The notes beneath the pieces are model-generated. The model was not told the DNA's origin. It did not search any database and saw only the letters and a list, made by a program, of their open reading frames with translations. Made by a program: the position numbers and the translations under genes. A stretch of DNA of 64,000 bases from a virus: UHGV virus genome UHGV-1380027, one strand, 5' to 3'. The number at the start of each line of letters is the position of its first letter. Positions within the stretch are counted from its first letter, which is position 1. Positions 4,351-13,757 of the stretch are shown here, piece by piece.

Positions 4351-4375
4351 TTTTCAGTCCTCTCTATACAAAAAT

Positions 4376-4397
4376 GCCCCACCCTTTCGGGTAGGGC
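4376..4397 (-). terminator. rho-independent terminator hairpin (GAAA-loop type)
   Basis: minus-strand RNA GCCCUACCC-GAAA-GGGUGGGGC followed by AUUUUUGUAU; fully paired only in minus-strand transcript (G-U pair). Confidence 0.6.
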
Positions 4398-4412
4398 TAT
4401 GTTAACTAGATG

Positions 4413-5639
4413 TTAAAAAGGTATGTCATCATCAAAGGCGTACTGTGCCGGATTCTGATCCATCGGGTCGTCTTCCGCATCATCTACAGGAGGAGCGTCT
4501 ACAGTGTTTTGCTGTGGGGCGGCTTCCTGTTTGGCAGCTTGAGGCTCTTGATGGTCAGTGGCTCCAGCACCGTTCTTGATCCAATCATACAACGGTTCAG
4601 CAAGATTAGTCAAGACATCTTTTGCCTCTGCAGTAATTGCTACTGCAAAATCATCAACTTTCGTTTTCTTGTCAATACGGCGACAAGCGTTCAATACCGC
4701 ATTACCAACACTGGCACCTACTTCATCTTCAGTTCGGTTAGTGGCTTGAGCGTACTCTTTCTTAAGCTCGATGGTGACCACGTGCAGTGTTTTAGCCACA
4801 TCTAAAGGGCTGTCAATCTTAAACCCGCGATCCAAGATGATCTGCAATGCATTGATACTGTGCCCTGTCTCTACACCGATGGGGTCGTAAGAGGATTTAC
4901 GCTTACCACCAGAACCTTGTGTACCGTTCTCTGCTTTAGGCGGGTAGGCCTTGAAGCCGCTGATAATATTCCCGGTGTCTTTGTCAACAATAGCTGCAAC
5001 ACGACCGCCAACCACCAGGTCTTTAAGCTGCTCATCGGAGACAACCATAGCACCTTCGCCAATCTTGTGGTCATTGACAGTAACCACGTTACCAACAATC
5101 TGAGTCACATCACCATAGATGCGTAAAACGTCCTGATTGGCATTCTGCTGAGGTTTCTGCTTCTGGCCTTGTGATTGTGTGCCTTGTTGCTGTTTTTGTT
5201 GCTGTGGAGCTGATGGAGCCTCTCCTGCCCCCAACTTAACCATTTTAGCCAGTGAGCCTTTGTAGTAGGTCTTACCGTTATGCTCATTTGCCTTTAAAGG
5301 GATATTTACGATCCATCCTGGCGTTACTGTTTCCCACTTGTCATCAATTTTAACAGAGACGGAGTCTTGATGACCAGGCTTAAGCAGCTTATCACCCATG
5401 CTGATCCAAACTTCTTCACCACCTTGGAGCAGGTTATCAGAGGAGTCCAGTTCAGAAATCAGTAAAGAGATGGTGTGGCTGGATTCAATTTTCTTACCTT
5501 GCCACACAGTGGTTTTAATACCTGTTGTAGGATCAGCACCTTTAATGGGCTTGATGCTGACACGTTTAATCATACCGTGAGCCAGTAAAACAGTTTCACG
5601 CGGATTCATCGGGTTAGCAAATTGTTGGATAACGCTCAT
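4413..5639 (-). CDS. SSB-like protein with host-SSB-type C-terminal tail (408 aa)
   Basis: C-terminus AFDDDIPF identical to bacterial SSB tip; Gln/Gly-rich linker PQQQKQQQGTQSQGQKQKPQQ; adjacent to replication genes. Confidence 0.5.
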   Translation of the reverse strand: MSVIQQFANPMNPRETVLLAHGMIKRVSIKPIKGADPTTGIKTTVWQGKKIESSHTISLLISELDSSDNLLQGGEEVWISMGDKLLKPGHQDSVSVKIDDKWETVTPGWIVNIPLKANEHNGKTYYKGSLAKMVKLGAGEAPSAPQQQKQQQGTQSQGQKQKPQQNANQDVLRIYGDVTQIVGNVVTVNDHKIGEGAMVVSDEQLKDLVVGGRVAAIVDKDTGNIISGFKAYPPKAENGTQGSGGKRKSSYDPIGVETGHSINALQIILDRGFKIDSPLDVAKTLHVVTIELKKEYAQATNRTEDEVGASVGNAVLNACRRIDKKTKVDDFAVAITAEAKDVLTNLAEPLYDWIKNGAGATDHQEPQAAKQEAAPQQNTVDAPPVDDAEDDPMDQNPAQYAFDDDIPF

Positions 5640-6049
5640 TATTTATCTCCTTGTTCTTCGTTAGTGGTTGATGTATGTGCAAACCCTGCTTGAATTAATT
5701 TGTCCTGGACTTGAGCTAACAGGCCCATTGCAAAACTCGTCGTCCCAGAAAGGGCCATTAGCATATCTCGTTGTTGAGCTACCCAACCTAAGGCATAATC
5801 CAAACGACGATATTTCTCTTCTTCTCGCAGAGCCTGGAATAACTGTTCAGCCTCTGGTTGTTGTGTGAGCTCCTGAAGTCTCCCCATGAAAGAAGAAAGT
5901 ACCAGCAGAAGAGACACTTGATCTTTGCTTAACCCTAAGAAAAATTCTTGAGGTTGTTCTTGCTCGTTCATCGCAACCGACGCTTGATCGTTCATTTGTT
6001 CCATTGTGGAATCTCCGATTTTATTTGAACAACATAAAGGAGACACCAT
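5639..6049 (-). CDS. hypothetical protein (136 aa)
   Basis: strong SD AAGGAGA 7 nt upstream of ATG. Confidence 0.55.
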   Translation of the reverse strand: MVSPLCCSNKIGDSTMEQMNDQASVAMNEQEQPQEFFLGLSKDQVSLLLVLSSFMGRLQELTQQPEAEQLFQALREEEKYRRLDYALGWVAQQRDMLMALSGTTSFAMGLLAQVQDKLIQAGFAHTSTTNEEQGDK

Positions 6050-8842: not shown

Positions 8843-11620
8843 TTAGTGACAATCGCCCCAGTTACGACCGCACAAGTATTCACCTGTGATCTGGAACGGA
8901 ACGCCCATCATTTTAGAAGCCTGCCAGAAGCAATGCACCACCATTTCGCCCACAGGGCTCCAGATAAGTTCAAGCTTTCCGTCATCGTTCAAGATAGGAT
9001 CGTATACCGTATTTCCGTCCTTGTCAACCACTTCGTTTCCGTCCTCATCTTTGCGTGCCTTTTTGTACTTATGACCGTCGAACACATGAAGTTTAGCCTC
9101 TTGTTGGGCTTTAAATGTTTCCAGCTCTTCAATTGTGTCGAAGGTGTATACAGTTTTATACTTAGGGGTGTCAGGCACTTGAAGCTGATATTCGTCATGG
9201 TAATAAATAATACGACGAACACCTTCATCATACCATCCACGCTTCACCATTTGGTGGTGCATGAGGATTCCGACCAAGTCGCACAACGATGCACCGCCAT
9301 TTTGCTGATATGCATTAAGCAAAGAGTGTTTAGAGCGGGTCCAAATGGCATGCCCGTCAAAAGAGTAGATAAATTTCTTACCTGTTGCTTCCCAGAATTT
9401 CTCCAGATCCTCTTTGCGCCCCTTAAGACCTGGGTTGGCATCCCAGAGAGCATCAATTACTCTCTGCCCCAGTTCTGGAGAGATATCCAGCATATCTGCA
9501 ACTTTATCTTTTTGTGCCCCATACATAACCCCATACGTGATAGGTTTACCATCGTTACGAGACACCTCTCTACCTGCTACTTTTGTATATGCCTCAGCAT
9601 TGTTTTGGTGCGCGTCCCCGTTACTTACAACATCATAATACAGGCCGTTGTCAAACTCAAATGCACCCCAGGCCCCGATGAGCTGCTCTAAGTTGGACCC
9701 GTCAATACCGATCTCAAAGTATCCAGGAGGAACACCCCACAGACTACGCATCTCTTTACCCATAACCACTTTAGGAGATGGTTTAGGCATGTTTGCACAA
9801 ATACTATGTTTCTGTCTGGAAGTGTTTGTTAATCCAGAACTTTTAGCAGGAAGCTTGTGGTCAATCTTCAAACGTGGATGATTAAGAAGACCAGTATCAA
9901 CCTTATCTTCCTTGATTGGATCAAGGACCGATCTGCGGTTTCGCAATGATAACCACAAAACGATATCTTTAGCCATCTCTCCGTTCAATTTTTCAAGATT
10001 CGGGCACAGGTGTCCAAACGTATCTTTCAGTTGCGGAGAAGTAATAAGCGCTCTGGCTTTTCTACGTATCTTCCCAAACACTTCCTTTTTAATCCTTTCT
10101 GAGTTAGGGAAGCTTCGGAACTTATGCACAGTTGTCTGGAACTTGGCATCAGTTTTGTTCCAGAAGTTGATAATTAGATCACAATACTCTGACTCCAAAA
10201 GCTCGTCCATATATGCATATACTCGTGCATCAACATCTGCATCAGGTAAAGCTTTCTTCTTGCTGTCTTTAGTTACATCTTTAGTTCTCCACATTGTTGG
10301 GAGCCAACCAGCACTGATCAGGTATCGCTTGATGTCGTCCTGATTGCTGATTTTCATAGGTATCTTGCAGTCAGGCATTCGCTTCTGCTGTAGGTCACTT
10401 ATCGCCTGATCCATCAGCTCTTTAGGTAAAGGGTGTGGTGTAGAAGTTCCTTTGATATACCCCCTCAAGAAATCAGCCATCTTATCGGGGTCTTTACAGC
10501 CCATCTCTTCACACCATTTTATCCCCATCTTACTTACATCCCCTGTGGAGGTAAATGCTCGCTTAGGAGGAGCTTTGAACTCTAAAGCACTCATGTCCAC
10601 AGGGTAGCCAAGCTTGTCTTTTAACCATTTCCAACCATTATTGGAGATTGTCCCATCCTGGTTAAACGGCTTTTCAGGGAACTTAGGCCGCTGAGACATT
10701 GATAACTCTTTTAAAGGAAGTTGTGGTTCAACACGATCAGCGATCTCTTTCATCCACGCATCGCAACGGTCACGTAAAGCAATAGCCCCATCTATGTCGA
10801 AATACACCCCCTGTCGAGCCTGCAGCTCCATCAGGAAGTGCTGTAACATGCCTCGGCGTAATGCGTTCTTCCAGGTGATCTTCTTGAAGCCTTTCGGCTT
10901 CTCTTTGGCAGGATCGTACATAAAGTTCTGCATGTCAGATTTGCCGTAGAATACACCTTTTGATTCAGCTACCAACTCCTTCCAGAGCAACTCCTGAATG
11001 ATAACGTCCTCGAACACACGATCCACATACTTCCACAGCGGAAGCTCACGCCAGTCATCGATTTGAACTTTCTGGTTACCAAGGGCATAGCCCCATGCCA
11101 TAAGGCCATGAGGCCCAACAGGCTGCATTTTCTTGGTAACTGGATTGAATACTGCGTCCGGACAACCTTTTGGCAAAGGGCGGTCAGGCCACAAGATTCG
11201 ACTCATCGCTAACGTATCAAACAGATTAACCTGGTGGTCGTTGATAGTTCCCATGCATTTAGGATCACGGAACATATCAAAATGAATACCGGATAATCTT
11301 TCCATCAGCATAAAGTCGTAACTGTAGCAGTTATGGCAGTTCAAAGCCGTAGGTGACCAGTCTGAATTGCCTGTAAGCCAGCCTTCCAACTCTGAAAAAT
11401 CTGCTATGCGAGCCTCAAAATCTGTATAAAGGGTCTTCTTTGCCAGAATGAAGTTCTTAGCTTTCTCCACATCCTCTTCAGAGTAGTGTGTGCGGTCATT
11501 TAGGGGAAGGAACAGCATAAAACGGTTCTTATTCAGCTCTTTAAACAAACCGCAGTGATAATAAAGATCTGGGTCTTCCAGCAAGCCAGAGGCCTCAAAA
11601 TCGAACGACCACATGCTCAT
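8843..11620 (-). CDS. DNA polymerase, family A, with 3'-5' exonuclease domain (925 aa)
   Basis: Exo I FDFEASGL; motif A DGSNLEQLIGAW; motif B SRNDGKPITYGVMYGAQ; motif C IIYYHDEYQLQV; SD AAGGAGA. Confidence 0.85.
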   Translation of the reverse strand: MSMWSFDFEASGLLEDPDLYYHCGLFKELNKNRFMLFLPLNDRTHYSEEDVEKAKNFILAKKTLYTDFEARIADFSELEGWLTGNSDWSPTALNCHNCYSYDFMLMERLSGIHFDMFRDPKCMGTINDHQVNLFDTLAMSRILWPDRPLPKGCPDAVFNPVTKKMQPVGPHGLMAWGYALGNQKVQIDDWRELPLWKYVDRVFEDVIIQELLWKELVAESKGVFYGKSDMQNFMYDPAKEKPKGFKKITWKNALRRGMLQHFLMELQARQGVYFDIDGAIALRDRCDAWMKEIADRVEPQLPLKELSMSQRPKFPEKPFNQDGTISNNGWKWLKDKLGYPVDMSALEFKAPPKRAFTSTGDVSKMGIKWCEEMGCKDPDKMADFLRGYIKGTSTPHPLPKELMDQAISDLQQKRMPDCKIPMKISNQDDIKRYLISAGWLPTMWRTKDVTKDSKKKALPDADVDARVYAYMDELLESEYCDLIINFWNKTDAKFQTTVHKFRSFPNSERIKKEVFGKIRRKARALITSPQLKDTFGHLCPNLEKLNGEMAKDIVLWLSLRNRRSVLDPIKEDKVDTGLLNHPRLKIDHKLPAKSSGLTNTSRQKHSICANMPKPSPKVVMGKEMRSLWGVPPGYFEIGIDGSNLEQLIGAWGAFEFDNGLYYDVVSNGDAHQNNAEAYTKVAGREVSRNDGKPITYGVMYGAQKDKVADMLDISPELGQRVIDALWDANPGLKGRKEDLEKFWEATGKKFIYSFDGHAIWTRSKHSLLNAYQQNGGASLCDLVGILMHHQMVKRGWYDEGVRRIIYYHDEYQLQVPDTPKYKTVYTFDTIEELETFKAQQEAKLHVFDGHKYKKARKDEDGNEVVDKDGNTVYDPILNDDGKLELIWSPVGEMVVHCFWQASKMMGVPFQITGEYLCGRNWGDCH

Positions 11621-11678: not shown

Positions 11679-13757
11679 TTAAAAAGGTGTTTCGTCGTCT
11701 TCAAAACCAGGAACGTGGTTAGAGGACGGATCATCATACTGAAGATCTTCCTGTGTGTCAACAGGGTTAACAGCAGGAGTTATAACCTTATCAGCCACAA
11801 CCTTGCCCACAGGTGTTTCTACAACTGCATGCTCCTGATCCTCAAACATAGCTTGAGGTCTCCAAACAACCTCTCCACCTTCCCCGTCTGTAAACATCTG
11901 CATCTCTTTATCCCAATACCAATTGCTGGCATCGTGGAACTTGCCTGTGTGGGGATCCATAACTAGAGTGTCCGCAATACCTAAGGTTTTTGCTGGGCGG
12001 TTTTTAAGACCTACCAGCCGGACACGCCCACGGGAACGATCCACCATCTCCTCTGCCTCTACCCCGACAACCACCCAGCTAAGTTGCTCCAATCCGGCAC
12101 TACCGCGAAGGTTCTCTTTTCGTACAGGGTACCAGAAAGGTAACGGATTTCCATCCTTATCCTTCGGAGGTACAATCTCTGTGCGCTTCAGGTGAGCAAT
12201 CACCAAGATAAACACATTAAACTGCTTACAGAACGCGGCTAGTTGAGTCATAGCCATGTCAAGCTCTTTACGCTCATCCTTAACATTAAGCCCTGAAATC
12301 ACCATAGACAAGTGATCCAGCACAATGTAACGGCAGTGATACAGGCACACCATTTGTTTAAGCTTAGTGATCAGCTCATCTACAGGGATGGAGCCGAAAT
12401 GCTTGAACACTTTGATTTTTCCGGCCTTGGCCCAAGATTGATGAATCTCAGCGTGCTCCTGATCGGTCAGGAACTGACTGGGGTCTTCAACAAACTCTTT
12501 AACATCAACCCCCAGCTGGTTAGCGTACAGAGAGTTGATTGCTTCCTCAGGATCCTCTTCAAGGTGAATCAGGCACAGGCGATCATCCTCTTCATAATCA
12601 TCAGCTTTAGGGCATGTTGGGTCCATCAAGTATCTTGCAATGCAATGTTCCAGCTTCTTGGCTACAGTTGTTTTACCACCGCCAGACGGGCCTGTCAGCA
12701 TCATCAAGGTGCCTTTGTGGAGTCCTTTCAGCATCTTCTGCAGTTTAGGGAACTCTGCACTAATATCCACGCCATTGGAAGTCTTCTTACGAAGAGATTC
12801 AATGGAGAAGTCTTCTAAATCAGATACAGCATCAGGCACATATTTGACTGGGTGACGGAACATGTTGACAATATCTTCCAGCTTTTTAGCCTTCAGCATG
12901 TCACGAATATCTTTTACACCATCAGGGTCGTTTACCTCACCTGGGTATTCCACGTGGTAAACGTTGTCAGCCATCAAAAATGCTGCGATATTATGCGTAG
13001 CTTCAACACCTTTGATAACGTGTTTTTGCTTCTCTACCTCGTTAGCTGCATCGTTGTCCATTGCAAGGACTACTGTTCCGTAGCTACGGATAAATTTCTC
13101 ATTGTTCGCAAAAGTGTCTACGGCGTTTGCACACCCGCAGTTAATTCCGACAAAAGGCAGGCATGGTTTTCCTGCCAGATCACCGCCGTTGATAACTGCA
13201 TCAATCCCATCCTGGACTTCTTTAGCCCACTGCTTCACCTTCGCCGGGGCTTTAGTATTGGTGAGAATTCCTTTTACTTGTACCTGATATGCAGCCTGCC
13301 ACGCTGCAATAACATCTCCTTCCCCCTCACAAACGTTAATCTGCTTGCGGTTGTTGGAGGATGCACACAGCTTTTGACCAAACATCTGGGAGTTGGCCTT
13401 TACTATGCCAACAACCGAGAAATGGCCCCTTTGCTCTTTAGGGATTGTCCAGTCCCGCTTTTTAAAGCCAGATAGATTACCGTAGCGGTCATAATACGGA
13501 AAGTAGGTGGCAGTAACAGTTACACCATCCTCTTGGGATAGCGATGATCGTACACCAAAATATTGTGCAGCCATCAGTCCAATATTTTGTTGTGGAACAG
13601 GGACAATTTTAGTATTTTCTAAAACAGTCTCTACAGTTTCAACTTCTTTTTCATCACGATAGTCTCGTTTCACACTTCCCCCACTTTTATACTTAGTTGC
13701 TTTCGGGTTTTGCTCACCGAAACGGTTGTATGCAGATGCCATGAATTTACTGCCCAT
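11679..13757 (-). CDS. primase-helicase fusion (TOPRIM domain + DnaB-like helicase), T7 gp4-like organisation (692 aa)
   Basis: TOPRIM motifs NVCEGEGD and LAMDNDAANE; Walker A LTGPSGGGKTT; Walker B IVLDHL; acidic C-terminus FEDDETPF; SD AAGGAGA. Confidence 0.8.
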   Translation of the reverse strand: MGSKFMASAYNRFGEQNPKATKYKSGGSVKRDYRDEKEVETVETVLENTKIVPVPQQNIGLMAAQYFGVRSSLSQEDGVTVTATYFPYYDRYGNLSGFKKRDWTIPKEQRGHFSVVGIVKANSQMFGQKLCASSNNRKQINVCEGEGDVIAAWQAAYQVQVKGILTNTKAPAKVKQWAKEVQDGIDAVINGGDLAGKPCLPFVGINCGCANAVDTFANNEKFIRSYGTVVLAMDNDAANEVEKQKHVIKGVEATHNIAAFLMADNVYHVEYPGEVNDPDGVKDIRDMLKAKKLEDIVNMFRHPVKYVPDAVSDLEDFSIESLRKKTSNGVDISAEFPKLQKMLKGLHKGTLMMLTGPSGGGKTTVAKKLEHCIARYLMDPTCPKADDYEEDDRLCLIHLEEDPEEAINSLYANQLGVDVKEFVEDPSQFLTDQEHAEIHQSWAKAGKIKVFKHFGSIPVDELITKLKQMVCLYHCRYIVLDHLSMVISGLNVKDERKELDMAMTQLAAFCKQFNVFILVIAHLKRTEIVPPKDKDGNPLPFWYPVRKENLRGSAGLEQLSWVVVGVEAEEMVDRSRGRVRLVGLKNRPAKTLGIADTLVMDPHTGKFHDASNWYWDKEMQMFTDGEGGEVVWRPQAMFEDQEHAVVETPVGKVVADKVITPAVNPVDTQEDLQYDDPSSNHVPGFEDDETPF

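What the first reader, a model, noticed from the sequence alone, without database searches (positions are those of the whole stretch)
4413..5639. SSB-like protein ending in FDDDIPF, and primase-helicase ending in DDETPF: shared SSB-type acidic C-terminal tails
The 408-aa ORF ends with AFDDDIPF, identical to the C-terminal tip of bacterial SSB that recruits partner proteins, preceded by a Gln-rich linker. The primase-helicase (11679..13757) ends with FEDDETPF. In the T7 replisome both gp2.5 and gp4 carry acidic tails ending in Phe that bind the polymerase, so this phage may use a similar tail-mediated replisome assembly. Alternatively the SSB-like tail could recruit or titrate host SSB-interacting proteins. 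The protein is much longer than typical SSBs and its OB-fold was not verified.
Basis: partly seen in the sequence, partly recalled or inferred. Interest (0 to 1): 0.5.

Follow-up and report, generated by a model that had tools for sequence, protein, structure and literature searches.

The report
Phage SSB-like protein with host-type tail
An rV5-like E. coli phage encodes an unusually long single-stranded-DNA-binding-like protein that ends in the docking peptide of the bacterial SSB, and its primase-helicase ends in a similar peptide; the first point was reported in a 2026 preprint, the second I did not find reported.

Summary
ORF 4413-5639 (408 aa) ends AFDDDIPF and the primase-helicase 11679-13757 (692 aa) ends FEDDETPF. 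They are the only two of 211 ORFs that end in PF.

The window is an rV5-like Vequintavirus. The 408-aa protein is rV5 ORF214 (phrog_4477, "unknown function", no Pfam). It is 97% identical to Bas52_0087. A 2026 preprint describes Bas52_0087 as SSB-like with an FDDDIPF tip and shows genetically that it triggers the DRT10 defence.

My model gives this order of parts:
- a Gln-rich disordered linker
- a small second OB-like barrel
- a four-helix bundle with no informative neighbour
- an acidic disordered linker and the tip

A profile of the N-terminal domain alone found 111 cluster representatives. Of these, 94 carry an acidic [I/V/L]PF at or near the C-terminus. Of the 120 primase-helicase homologues listed, 112 end in PF.

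Both tails are therefore conserved docking motifs in one replication module. What they dock to is not shown: the phage polymerase, as in T7, or host SSB partners such as ExoI.

Many relatives carry 15 extra residues after IPF, often with a mobile endonuclease gene starting inside that extension.

The parts
4413..5639 (-). Gene for the 408-aa SSB-like protein (orthologue of rV5 ORF214 and Bas52_0087; phrog_4477)
   Evidence: ORF. phrog_4477 match over the full length, E=3e-172. No significant Pfam hit. 97% identical to Bas52_0087.
5223..5639 (-). aa 1-139: N-terminal OB-fold domain, basic (pI 9.1), the presumed ssDNA-binding domain
5133..5222 (-). aa 140-169: disordered Gln-rich linker (43% Q)
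   Evidence: pLDDT below 50; composition.
4932..5132 (-). aa 170-236: small five-stranded barrel with OB-like topology (b1-b2-b3-short helix-b4-b5). It is absent from the shorter family members (phi92-like phages, P0056, P0057).
   Evidence: Secondary structure. Absence in short members. The preprint also calls it a second OB-fold.
4569..4889 (-). aa 251-357: four-helix bundle, the most conserved part of the family (invariant G259, H260, N263, H286, G312). It holds D252 and Y351, the DRT10-escape positions in Bas52.
4440..4568 (-). aa 358-400: disordered acidic Pro/Gln-rich linker
   Evidence: pLDDT below 50 for 359-403. Net charge -12 for aa 358-408.
4416..4439 (-). aa 401-408: tip AFDDDIPF, whose last six residues DDDIPF are the E. 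coli SSB C-terminal hexapeptide
   Evidence: Sequence read. P407 and F408 invariant. DDDIPF named as the SSB-Ct hexapeptide in PMC5872125.
4376..4397 (-). Terminator-like hairpin followed by a T-run just after the stop codon. There is no coding extension and no endonuclease gene at this point in this phage.
   Evidence: 23 phage records share this junction without the endonuclease gene.
11679..13757 (-). Primase-helicase gene (692 aa)
   Evidence: phrog_239 E=8e-159; DnaB_C and AAA_25 Pfam hits.
11682..11705 (-). aa 685-692: primase-helicase tip FEDDETPF, an acidic stretch ending in PF
   Evidence: 112 of the 120 listed homologues (42-98% identical to the query) end in PF, while the linker before it varies freely.
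8843..11620 (-). Family A DNA polymerase (925 aa), the candidate common docking partner. This role is inferred, not tested.
   Evidence: phrog_8888 E=1e-142 and phrog_17 E=2e-98. PF00476 scores 31.8 bits, just under its gathering score of 34.3.
5639..6049 (-). Upstream 136-aa ORF (phrog_7310, unknown function). Its stop codon overlaps the ATG of the SSB-like gene by one base, which suggests translational coupling.
   Evidence: The same one-base overlap occurs in Bas52 genes 0086 and 0087.

Best explanation
ORF 4413-5639(-) most likely encodes the phage's own replication-fork single-stranded-DNA-binding protein, from an uncharacterised phage family (phrog_4477).

Inferred working model: the basic N-terminal OB-fold, and probably the small second OB-like barrel, bind ssDNA. 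The conserved four-helix bundle mediates self-association or another conserved contact. The long acidic disordered linker presents a bacterial SSB-type tip (..FDDDIPF-COOH) as a docking peptide.

The primase-helicase of the same module carries a similar tip (..FEDDETPF-COOH). The two proteins can therefore be brought to the same kind of binding site, one that takes an acidic peptide ending in Pro-Phe with a free carboxyl group. I think the partners are both the phage replisome (polymerase and/or each other, as with T7 gp2.5, gp4 and gp5) and host SSB-client enzymes such as exonuclease I.

Shown here: the sequences, the predicted folds, the conservation of both tips, the gene order, and identity with the DRT10 trigger Bas52_0087. 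Inferred: ssDNA binding, oligomerisation, and every binding partner.
For: Tails present and unique in the window.

Predicted architecture is OB-fold, disordered linker, OB-like barrel, four-helix bundle, disordered acidic tail. The best PDB neighbours of the model are SSB, PriB and RPA-type OB-folds. Weak BFVD matches include phage SSB and DUF2815 proteins.

A profile of the N-terminal domain alone recovers 111 cluster representatives, 94 with the acidic xPF end. The tip is invariant in the alignment. The primase-helicase tip is kept in 112 of 120 listed homologues although the preceding linker varies.

The order primase-helicase, PolA, small ORFs, SSB-like gene is kept in distant contigs L008 and L009. 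In Vibrio phage 277E43-1 an unrelated 402-aa protein (phrog_2544) sits in the same position and also ends MDFDDDIPF, and its helicase ends DEDIDEPF.

No SSB is listed for rV5 (PMC3606486) or annotated in 45 kb around the module of NHEP1.

The Bas52 orthologue (97% identical) was described as SSB-like with an FDDDIPF tip. It is needed to trigger DRT10, and only missense escapers (D252V, Y351C) were recovered, which would fit an essential gene. ExoI/SbcB dosage modulates that defence.

T7 precedent: the gp2.5 tail anchors on the front basic patch of gp5, where a gp4 tail peptide (DTDF) also binds in PDB 6P7E (PMC12339929).
Against: There is no sequence-level membership in any known SSB family. 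No Pfam hit. Profile searches of PDB sequences find nothing. hhalign to a phrog_44 SSB gives only a 26-column match at 32% probability.

In at least 32 Vequintavirus records (rV5 included), in the phi92-like phage BME3 and in the Klebsiella phage KpS11, the IPF is followed by a 15-residue extension. Known SSB-tip pockets use the free terminal carboxylate (my knowledge of the ExoI, RecQ and chi complexes). The tip can therefore be masked without loss of viability.

The helicases next to the distant family members in L008 and L009 end NKDF and MNYG, so the double-tail arrangement is not obligatory.

Expression of Bas52_0087 alone did not trigger DRT10, and no tail mutant was tested. Absence of a second SSB in the genome was not checked exhaustively.
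Confidence: 0.55

Rival explanations
1. Decoy or hijacker of the host SSB hub. The main role of the protein is not to coat phage ssDNA. Instead it presents many copies of the host SSB tip so as to titrate or redirect host SSB-client enzymes (ExoI, RecQ, PriA, RecJ and others) away from phage DNA or host repair.
For: The last six residues are identical to the E. coli SSB hexapeptide DDDIPF. Family tips track bacterial SSB variants such as DDDLPF and DEDIPF. A T7-style internal partner would not require this. DRT10, which is restrained by ExoI, needs this protein for activation, and extra ExoI weakens the defence.
Against: The gene sits in the replication module in conserved order, and no other SSB is known in rV5. 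Two OB-like domains are more than a peptide decoy would need. Only missense escapers were found, which would fit an essential function. Viable relatives mask the tip with an extension. The helicase tip is not explained by this idea.
Confidence: 0.2
2. Strict T7-type replisome glue only. Both tips bind one basic site on the phage family A polymerase. They have no relation to host proteins, and the resemblance to host SSB is convergent.
For: The module composition matches T7: a fused primase-helicase, a family A polymerase and an SSB, with an acidic tail ending in Phe on both helicase and SSB.
Against: No interaction was tested. The exact match to the host hexapeptide over many host genera is unexplained by convergence. 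The genetic link to ExoI and DRT10 points to host contacts. Distant members pair an IPF-tipped SSB-like protein with helicases lacking the PF end.
Confidence: 0.15
3. Not an ssDNA-binding protein. The OB-folds serve protein binding, and the protein is an adaptor, for example a helicase loader or recombination mediator, that merely carries an SSB-like tip.
For: OB-folds also bind proteins. There is no sequence homology to SSB families. The conserved helical domain, with invariant His and Asn residues, has no known counterpart.
Against: The best structural neighbours are overwhelmingly ssDNA binders. The layout of a basic OB domain, a disordered acidic linker and a tip is the SSB layout. It occupies the position in the module where a Vibrio phage has an unrelated protein with the same tip.
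Confidence: 0.08

Closest known systems
Bas52_0087 (QXV84166.1) of Escherichia phage RudolfGeigy, the DRT10 trigger (bioRxiv 10.64898/2026.04.29.721553)
   Same: Orthologue: 97% identity over all 408 residues, the same neighbours, the same tip (SFDDDIPF against AFDDDIPF), and D252 and Y351 conserved. The preprint already reports the SSB-like prediction (Phold, AlphaFold2), two OB-folds, a disordered C-terminus and the FDDDIPF tip.
   Different: The preprint does not mention the primase-helicase tip ('primase' occurs 0 times). It gives no family-wide conservation, and it does not mention the 15-residue extension or the endonuclease alleles. It calls the region holding D252 and Y351 a putative oligomerisation interface. 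Here that region is modelled as a separate four-helix bundle with no known structural neighbour.
Bacterial SSB (E. coli SSB, Pfam PF00436)
   Same: OB-fold at the N-terminus, an intrinsically disordered linker rich in Gln and Pro, and an identical C-terminal hexapeptide DDDIPF.
   Different: No detectable sequence homology in the OB domain. The protein has 408 residues, more than twice the length of E. coli SSB (my knowledge, about 178 aa), with an extra OB-like barrel and a four-helix bundle. The oligomeric state is unknown.
T7 replisome: gp2.5 SSB, gp4 primase-helicase, gp5 polymerase
   Same: The same module type: a fused primase-helicase, a family A polymerase and an SSB. Both the SSB and the helicase end in an acidic tail with a terminal Phe. 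In T7 both tails bind the same basic patch of the polymerase.
   Different: The tips here end in Pro-Phe like bacterial SSB, whereas the T7 gp4 tail peptide is DTDF. No homology of the SSB-like protein to gp2.5 was found; there is only a weak DUF2815 structural hit at E about 9e-3. Polymerase binding is untested.
Phage SSBs of phrog_44 that carry the host tip (for example phage morffagbaw)
   Same: OB domain, Gln-rich linker and MDFDDDIPF tip. They share a short motif G..VS......EYNGK.Y in the last OB strands. The same 15-residue extension and endonuclease insertion occur after the tip.
   Different: 163 aa with a single OB domain and a weak PF00436 match. No second barrel and no helical bundle.

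Membership tests
phrog_4477 (phage protein family, function unknown) | Full-length match to the family profile | tested here: met
   E=3.3e-172, residues 1-408 on profile positions 1-393 of 393.
Orthologue of Bas52_0087 / rV5 ORF214 | High identity over the full length and the same genomic neighbours | tested here: met
   97% identity, 408 of 408 aligned, no gaps. Same order of flanking genes.
Bacterial SSB family (Pfam PF00436) | Sequence match to the SSB OB-domain profile | tested here: not met
   No PF00436 hit at E up to 0.1. A profile of the N domain finds no SSB among PDB sequences.
Bacterial SSB family (Pfam PF00436) | OB-fold of the SSB type | tested here: met
Bacterial SSB family (Pfam PF00436) | Disordered linker followed by the acidic tip D-D-D-I-P-F at the very C-terminus | tested here: met
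   pLDDT below 50 for 359-403, net charge -12. The protein ends in DDDIPF.
Bacterial SSB family (Pfam PF00436) | High-affinity ssDNA binding and homo-oligomerisation through the OB domain | not testable with these tools
   Needs purified protein: EMSA or fluorescence titration, and SEC-MALS.
T7-type tail-mediated replisome | Fused primase-helicase and family A polymerase in one module | tested here: met
   phrog_239 primase/helicase with DnaB_C. Polymerase phrog_8888 and phrog_17, with PF00476 at 31.8 bits, just under its cut-off.
T7-type tail-mediated replisome | Both the SSB and the helicase end in an acidic tail with a C-terminal Phe | tested here: met
   AFDDDIPF and FEDDETPF; both conserved.
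T7-type tail-mediated replisome | Both tails bind a basic patch on the polymerase | not testable with these tools
   No complex prediction or binding assay was available.
T7-type tail-mediated replisome | SSB homologous to gp2.5 (DUF2815-like) | tested here: inconclusive
   Only weak BFVD matches, for example a DUF2815 protein at E=8.7e-3 and TM 0.17/0.30. No Pfam or PHROG link.

The most novel reading that the evidence does not exclude
The Pro-Phe tips on both the SSB-like protein and the primase-helicase plug the phage replisome into the host's SSB-client network (ExoI, RecQ, PriA, RNase HI and others). Bacterial defences such as DRT10 guard that network. The recurrent 15-residue extension after IPF, which travels with a mobile endonuclease gene but appears to be under peptide-level purifying selection, acts as a natural switch that masks the tip. 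It would change both host-factor recruitment and detection by tip-dependent defences.
Probability: 0.12. Interest if true: 0.7.

Novelty: new member of a known kind. Interest (0 to 1): 0.35.

Why it matters
rV5-like and phi92-like phages are widely used therapeutic and biocontrol phages. Their SSB has never been assigned in genome annotation: phrog_4477 is listed as "unknown function", and almost every GenBank record examined calls the gene "hypothetical protein".

Three things follow from recognising the family as an SSB analogue with a bacterial-type docking tip.
- It fills a gap in the replication module of these phages.
- It suggests how this protein could perturb ExoI-controlled ssDNA metabolism and so trigger DRT10.
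- It points to the primase-helicase tip as a second, untested handle on the same binding sites.

Alleles with and without the 15-residue extension are a ready-made natural experiment on whether a free SSB tip is needed.

Tried and rejected
Searches that found nothing:
- Pfam scan of the protein and of ten distant family members gave no meaningful family.
- phmmer and profile searches of PDB sequences with the whole protein, the N domain and the helical domain gave only chance-level hits.
- hhalign of the N-domain alignment against a phrog_44 phage SSB gave one 26-column motif at 32% probability, too weak to claim homology.
- A literature search for a homing endonuclease that targets the ssb 3' end found nothing relevant in the library. 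The retron Eco2 paper holds nothing on this protein.

Ideas considered and not adopted:
- That the 15-residue extension is a mere by-product of the endonuclease ribosome-binding site and start codon. This is only partly tenable, because the extension persists without the endonuclease gene in BME3 and KpS11 and varies mostly synonymously in its own frame.
- That the extension is a beta-clamp-binding or PIP-like motif. Inspection shows the spacing of hydrophobic residues does not fit; I ran no test.

Model coordinates are not exposed, so the distance between D252 and Y351 could not be measured.

Full report
**1. Observation.** On the minus strand, ORF 4413-5639 encodes 408 residues ending ...NPAQYAFDDDIPF. 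ORF 11679-13757 encodes 692 residues ending ...HVPGFEDDETPF. Of 211 ORFs of at least 60 aa on both strands of the window, these are the only two ending in PF. The stop codon of the first gene is followed at once by a terminator-like hairpin with a T-run at 4376-4397. DDDIPF is the C-terminal hexapeptide of E. coli SSB, known as SSB-Ct (PMC5872125).

**2. What the window is.** The region is 92-98% identical at DNA level to rV5-like Escherichia phages of the genus Vequintavirus. The 408-aa protein is rV5 ORF214. It is annotated "hypothetical protein" in nearly all of the 278 phage records that hold a match. It matches phrog_4477 ("unknown function") over its full length (E=3e-172) and has no significant Pfam family. 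Its neighbours on the same strand are these:
- a Dcm-like methyltransferase
- the primase-helicase (phrog_239; DnaB_C and AAA_25)
- a family A DNA polymerase of 925 aa
- about ten small ORFs
- a 136-aa ORF whose stop codon overlaps the ATG of the SSB-like gene

The rV5 genome paper lists a ligase, a polymerase and two helicases as replication proteins, and no SSB (PMC3606486). The PHROG-based annotation of 45 kb around the module in phage NHEP1 shows no SSB either. I did not scan a whole genome exhaustively.

**3. Fold.** An AlphaFold2 model built on 36 homologues has mean pLDDT 73, which is high inside the domains. It gives the following parts:

| Residues | Feature | Notes |
|---|---|---|
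| 1-139 | all-beta domain | pI 9.1 |
| 140-169 | disordered linker | 43% Gln |
| 171-232 | compact barrel | order b1-b2-b3-short helix-b4-b5, the OB topology |
| 253-355 | four-helix bundle | pLDDT about 90 |
| 359-403 | disordered segment | net charge -12 for aa 358-408, 14% Pro, 14% Gln |

At sequence level no link to a known SSB family could be shown. The only trace is a short motif, G..V.......EYNGK.Y, shared with a phrog_44 phage SSB in the last OB strands (hhalign probability 32%).

**4. The tips are conserved motifs.**
- In 36 homologues down to 29% identity, P407 and F408 are invariant and the consensus is D[F/W]D[D/E][D/S][I/V]PF, while the linker before it is free to vary.
- A profile of the N-terminal domain alone, without the tail, searched against 1.84 billion representatives found 111 proteins. 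Of these, 83 end in PF or PW and 11 more have PF followed by a short extension. Most of the remaining 17 are fragments or spurious long proteins.
- The commonest architecture is N domain plus helical bundle plus tail. The middle barrel is an addition in the rV5-like branch.
- For the primase-helicase, 112 of the 120 listed homologues (42-98% identical to the query, including Vibrio phages) end in an acidic stretch plus [T/S/C/E]PF. Two more have PF followed by the extension.
- The order helicase, PolA, small ORFs, SSB-like gene recurs in two distant metagenomic contigs. There the helicases end NKDF and MNYG, so the double tip is common but not obligatory.
- In Vibrio phage 277E43-1 the helicase ends DEDIDEPF. 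The syntenic position holds an unrelated 402-aa protein (phrog_2544, unknown function) that ends MDFDDDIPF. The pairing of tips thus recurs with a different carrier protein.

**5. Prior knowledge.** A bioRxiv preprint of April 2026 (10.64898/2026.04.29.721553) isolated escape mutants of phage Bas52 on the reverse-transcriptase defence DRT10. Both escapers map to Bas52_0087 (D252V and Y351C). The authors report these points:
- Phold and AlphaFold2 predict an SSB-like protein with two OB-folds and a disordered C-terminus carrying FDDDIPF.
- The protein alone does not activate DRT10, but it enhances restriction during infection.
- The host exonuclease I (SbcB), a known binder of the SSB tip, restrains the system.

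I fetched Bas52 and found that gene 0087 is 97% identical to the window ORF over all 408 residues, with the same neighbours. Its primase-helicase also ends FEDDETPF. In my model D252 lies just before the first helix of the four-helix bundle and Y351 in its last helix. The SSB-like reading and the tip are therefore already in the literature at the level of prediction plus genetics. The preprint does not mention the helicase tip.

**6. Mechanism.** The best-supported reading is that this is the phage's fork SSB. It binds ssDNA through the OB domain(s). It self-associates or makes a conserved contact through the helical bundle. It uses the tip on a long acidic tether as a docking peptide.

The primase-helicase offers a second, similar peptide, so both can reach the same kind of pocket. 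In T7 the tails of gp2.5 and gp4 bind the same basic patch of the polymerase (PMC12339929), and the module here has the same composition. On the other hand, the SSB-like tip copies the host hexapeptide exactly, and its variants in the family track bacterial variants. Together with the ExoI link, this favours contacts with host SSB clients as well. The two ideas are compatible, and no tool here could test binding.

**7. A complication found on the way.** Many relatives carry 15 more residues after IPF (AP[I/V]GL[Q/P]Y[G/A]...[I/L][H/Y][A/C/V][L/I/F]). They include rV5 itself, the representative of a 533-member protein cluster, the phi92-like phage BME3 and the Klebsiella phage KpS11. The same extension follows canonical phage SSBs (morffagbaw, mEp235, Vibrio phages) and the primase-helicase tip of Seunavirus and some Klebsiella phages.

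In rV5, morffagbaw and KE23 an endonuclease gene (annotated endonuclease VII or endonuclease) starts at a conserved CAATATG inside the extension, on the same strand in another frame. The three endonucleases share an N-terminal CxxC...CxxC module. Among phage records, 52 hold the rV5-type endonuclease gene and 32 the full junction, whereas 23 hold the junction of this window without it. This looks like a mobile endonuclease cassette that lands on DNA encoding the SSB tip, whichever gene carries it.

However, BME3 and KpS11 keep the extension without the endonuclease gene. In all ten pairwise comparisons the extension frame has more synonymous and fewer non-synonymous differences than the other two frames. 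The peptide itself therefore seems to be under selection, but five loci are a small sample.

Known SSB-tip pockets hold the free carboxylate of the last Phe (my knowledge of the ExoI, RecQ and chi complexes). The extension should therefore mask the tip. Such phages are viable, so a free tip is not indispensable for this protein.

**8. Verdict.**
- Supported: the SSB-like nature of the protein, its place in the replication module, and the functional status of both tips.
- Open: the partners of the tips.
- Already reported in the Bas52 preprint: the SSB-like architecture and the FDDDIPF tip.
- Not found in the papers I read: the conserved Pro-Phe tip of the primase-helicase, the family-wide coupling of the N-terminal domain with the tip, and the extension and endonuclease alleles.

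The arrangement is a new member of a known kind, namely a phage SSB with a bacterial-type tip in a T7-like double-tail layout.

Noticed in passing
Absent from the window (junction 4351-4415). Seen in L002:2519-3167 (rV5), L003:1525-1984, L004:3025-3505, L005:2525-2572, L006:2525-2572: A 15-residue extension (AP[I/V]GLQYG...) follows the IPF or TPF tip in many relatives. It occurs on three unrelated carriers: phrog_4477 proteins, canonical phage SSBs and primase-helicases. An endonuclease gene with a conserved N-terminal CxxC...CxxC module often starts at a CAATATG inside it. This looks like a mobile endonuclease that targets DNA encoding the SSB tip. Yet the extension persists without the endonuclease gene in BME3 and KpS11 and varies mostly synonymously in its own frame. 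Its function is unknown, and it should mask the terminal Phe.
   Followed up: partly
L011:17866-19074 (Vibrio phage 277E43-1, OX241464.1): An unrelated 402-aa protein (phrog_2544, unknown function, no Pfam) sits in the SSB position of the same module type and ends MDFDDDIPF. The neighbouring primase-helicase ends DEDIDEPF. This may be a second unannotated family of tip-bearing SSB analogues.
   Followed up: partly
window 5639-6049 (-): The 136-aa ORF (phrog_7310, unknown function) ends one base inside the ATG of the SSB-like gene, and the same overlap is kept in Bas52 (genes 0086 and 0087). It may be a translationally coupled partner of the SSB-like protein.
   Followed up: no
Homologues of window 11679-13757 (P0063-P0065, P0104-P0151) and of window 8843-11620 (NHEP1 L007:19468-23214; Bas52 L010:7750-10803): Many primase-helicase homologues are about 975-1025 aa instead of about 670-690, with query coverage of only 52-81% in one BLASTP alignment, which suggests an insertion of about 300 residues. 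The polymerase gene is 3747 nt in NHEP1 and is a two-piece join in Bas52. In this window both genes are uninterrupted. The replication genes of this phage group seem to be hot spots for mobile insertions.
   Followed up: no
Phage records MG065645-MG065690: About 20 records named 'Campylobacter phage', with host given as C. jejuni, are 96% identical in protein to these E. coli rV5-like phages. The host label is probably wrong or reflects contamination.
   Followed up: no
L001 (Salmonella phage 40, KR296694.1): The orthologous gene is split into three short CDSs annotated 'terminase large subunit', 'hypothetical protein' and 'single-stranded DNA-binding protein'. This is a frameshifted or low-quality record, and its SSB label rests on the tail only.
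   Followed up: yes
P0001; rV5 L002:2506-2527: In rV5-type alleles that carry the endonuclease gene, the tip reads DFCDDIPF, with Cys in place of the first Asp of the DDD stretch. This could be a target-site immunity change or relaxed selection on a masked tip.
   Followed up: no
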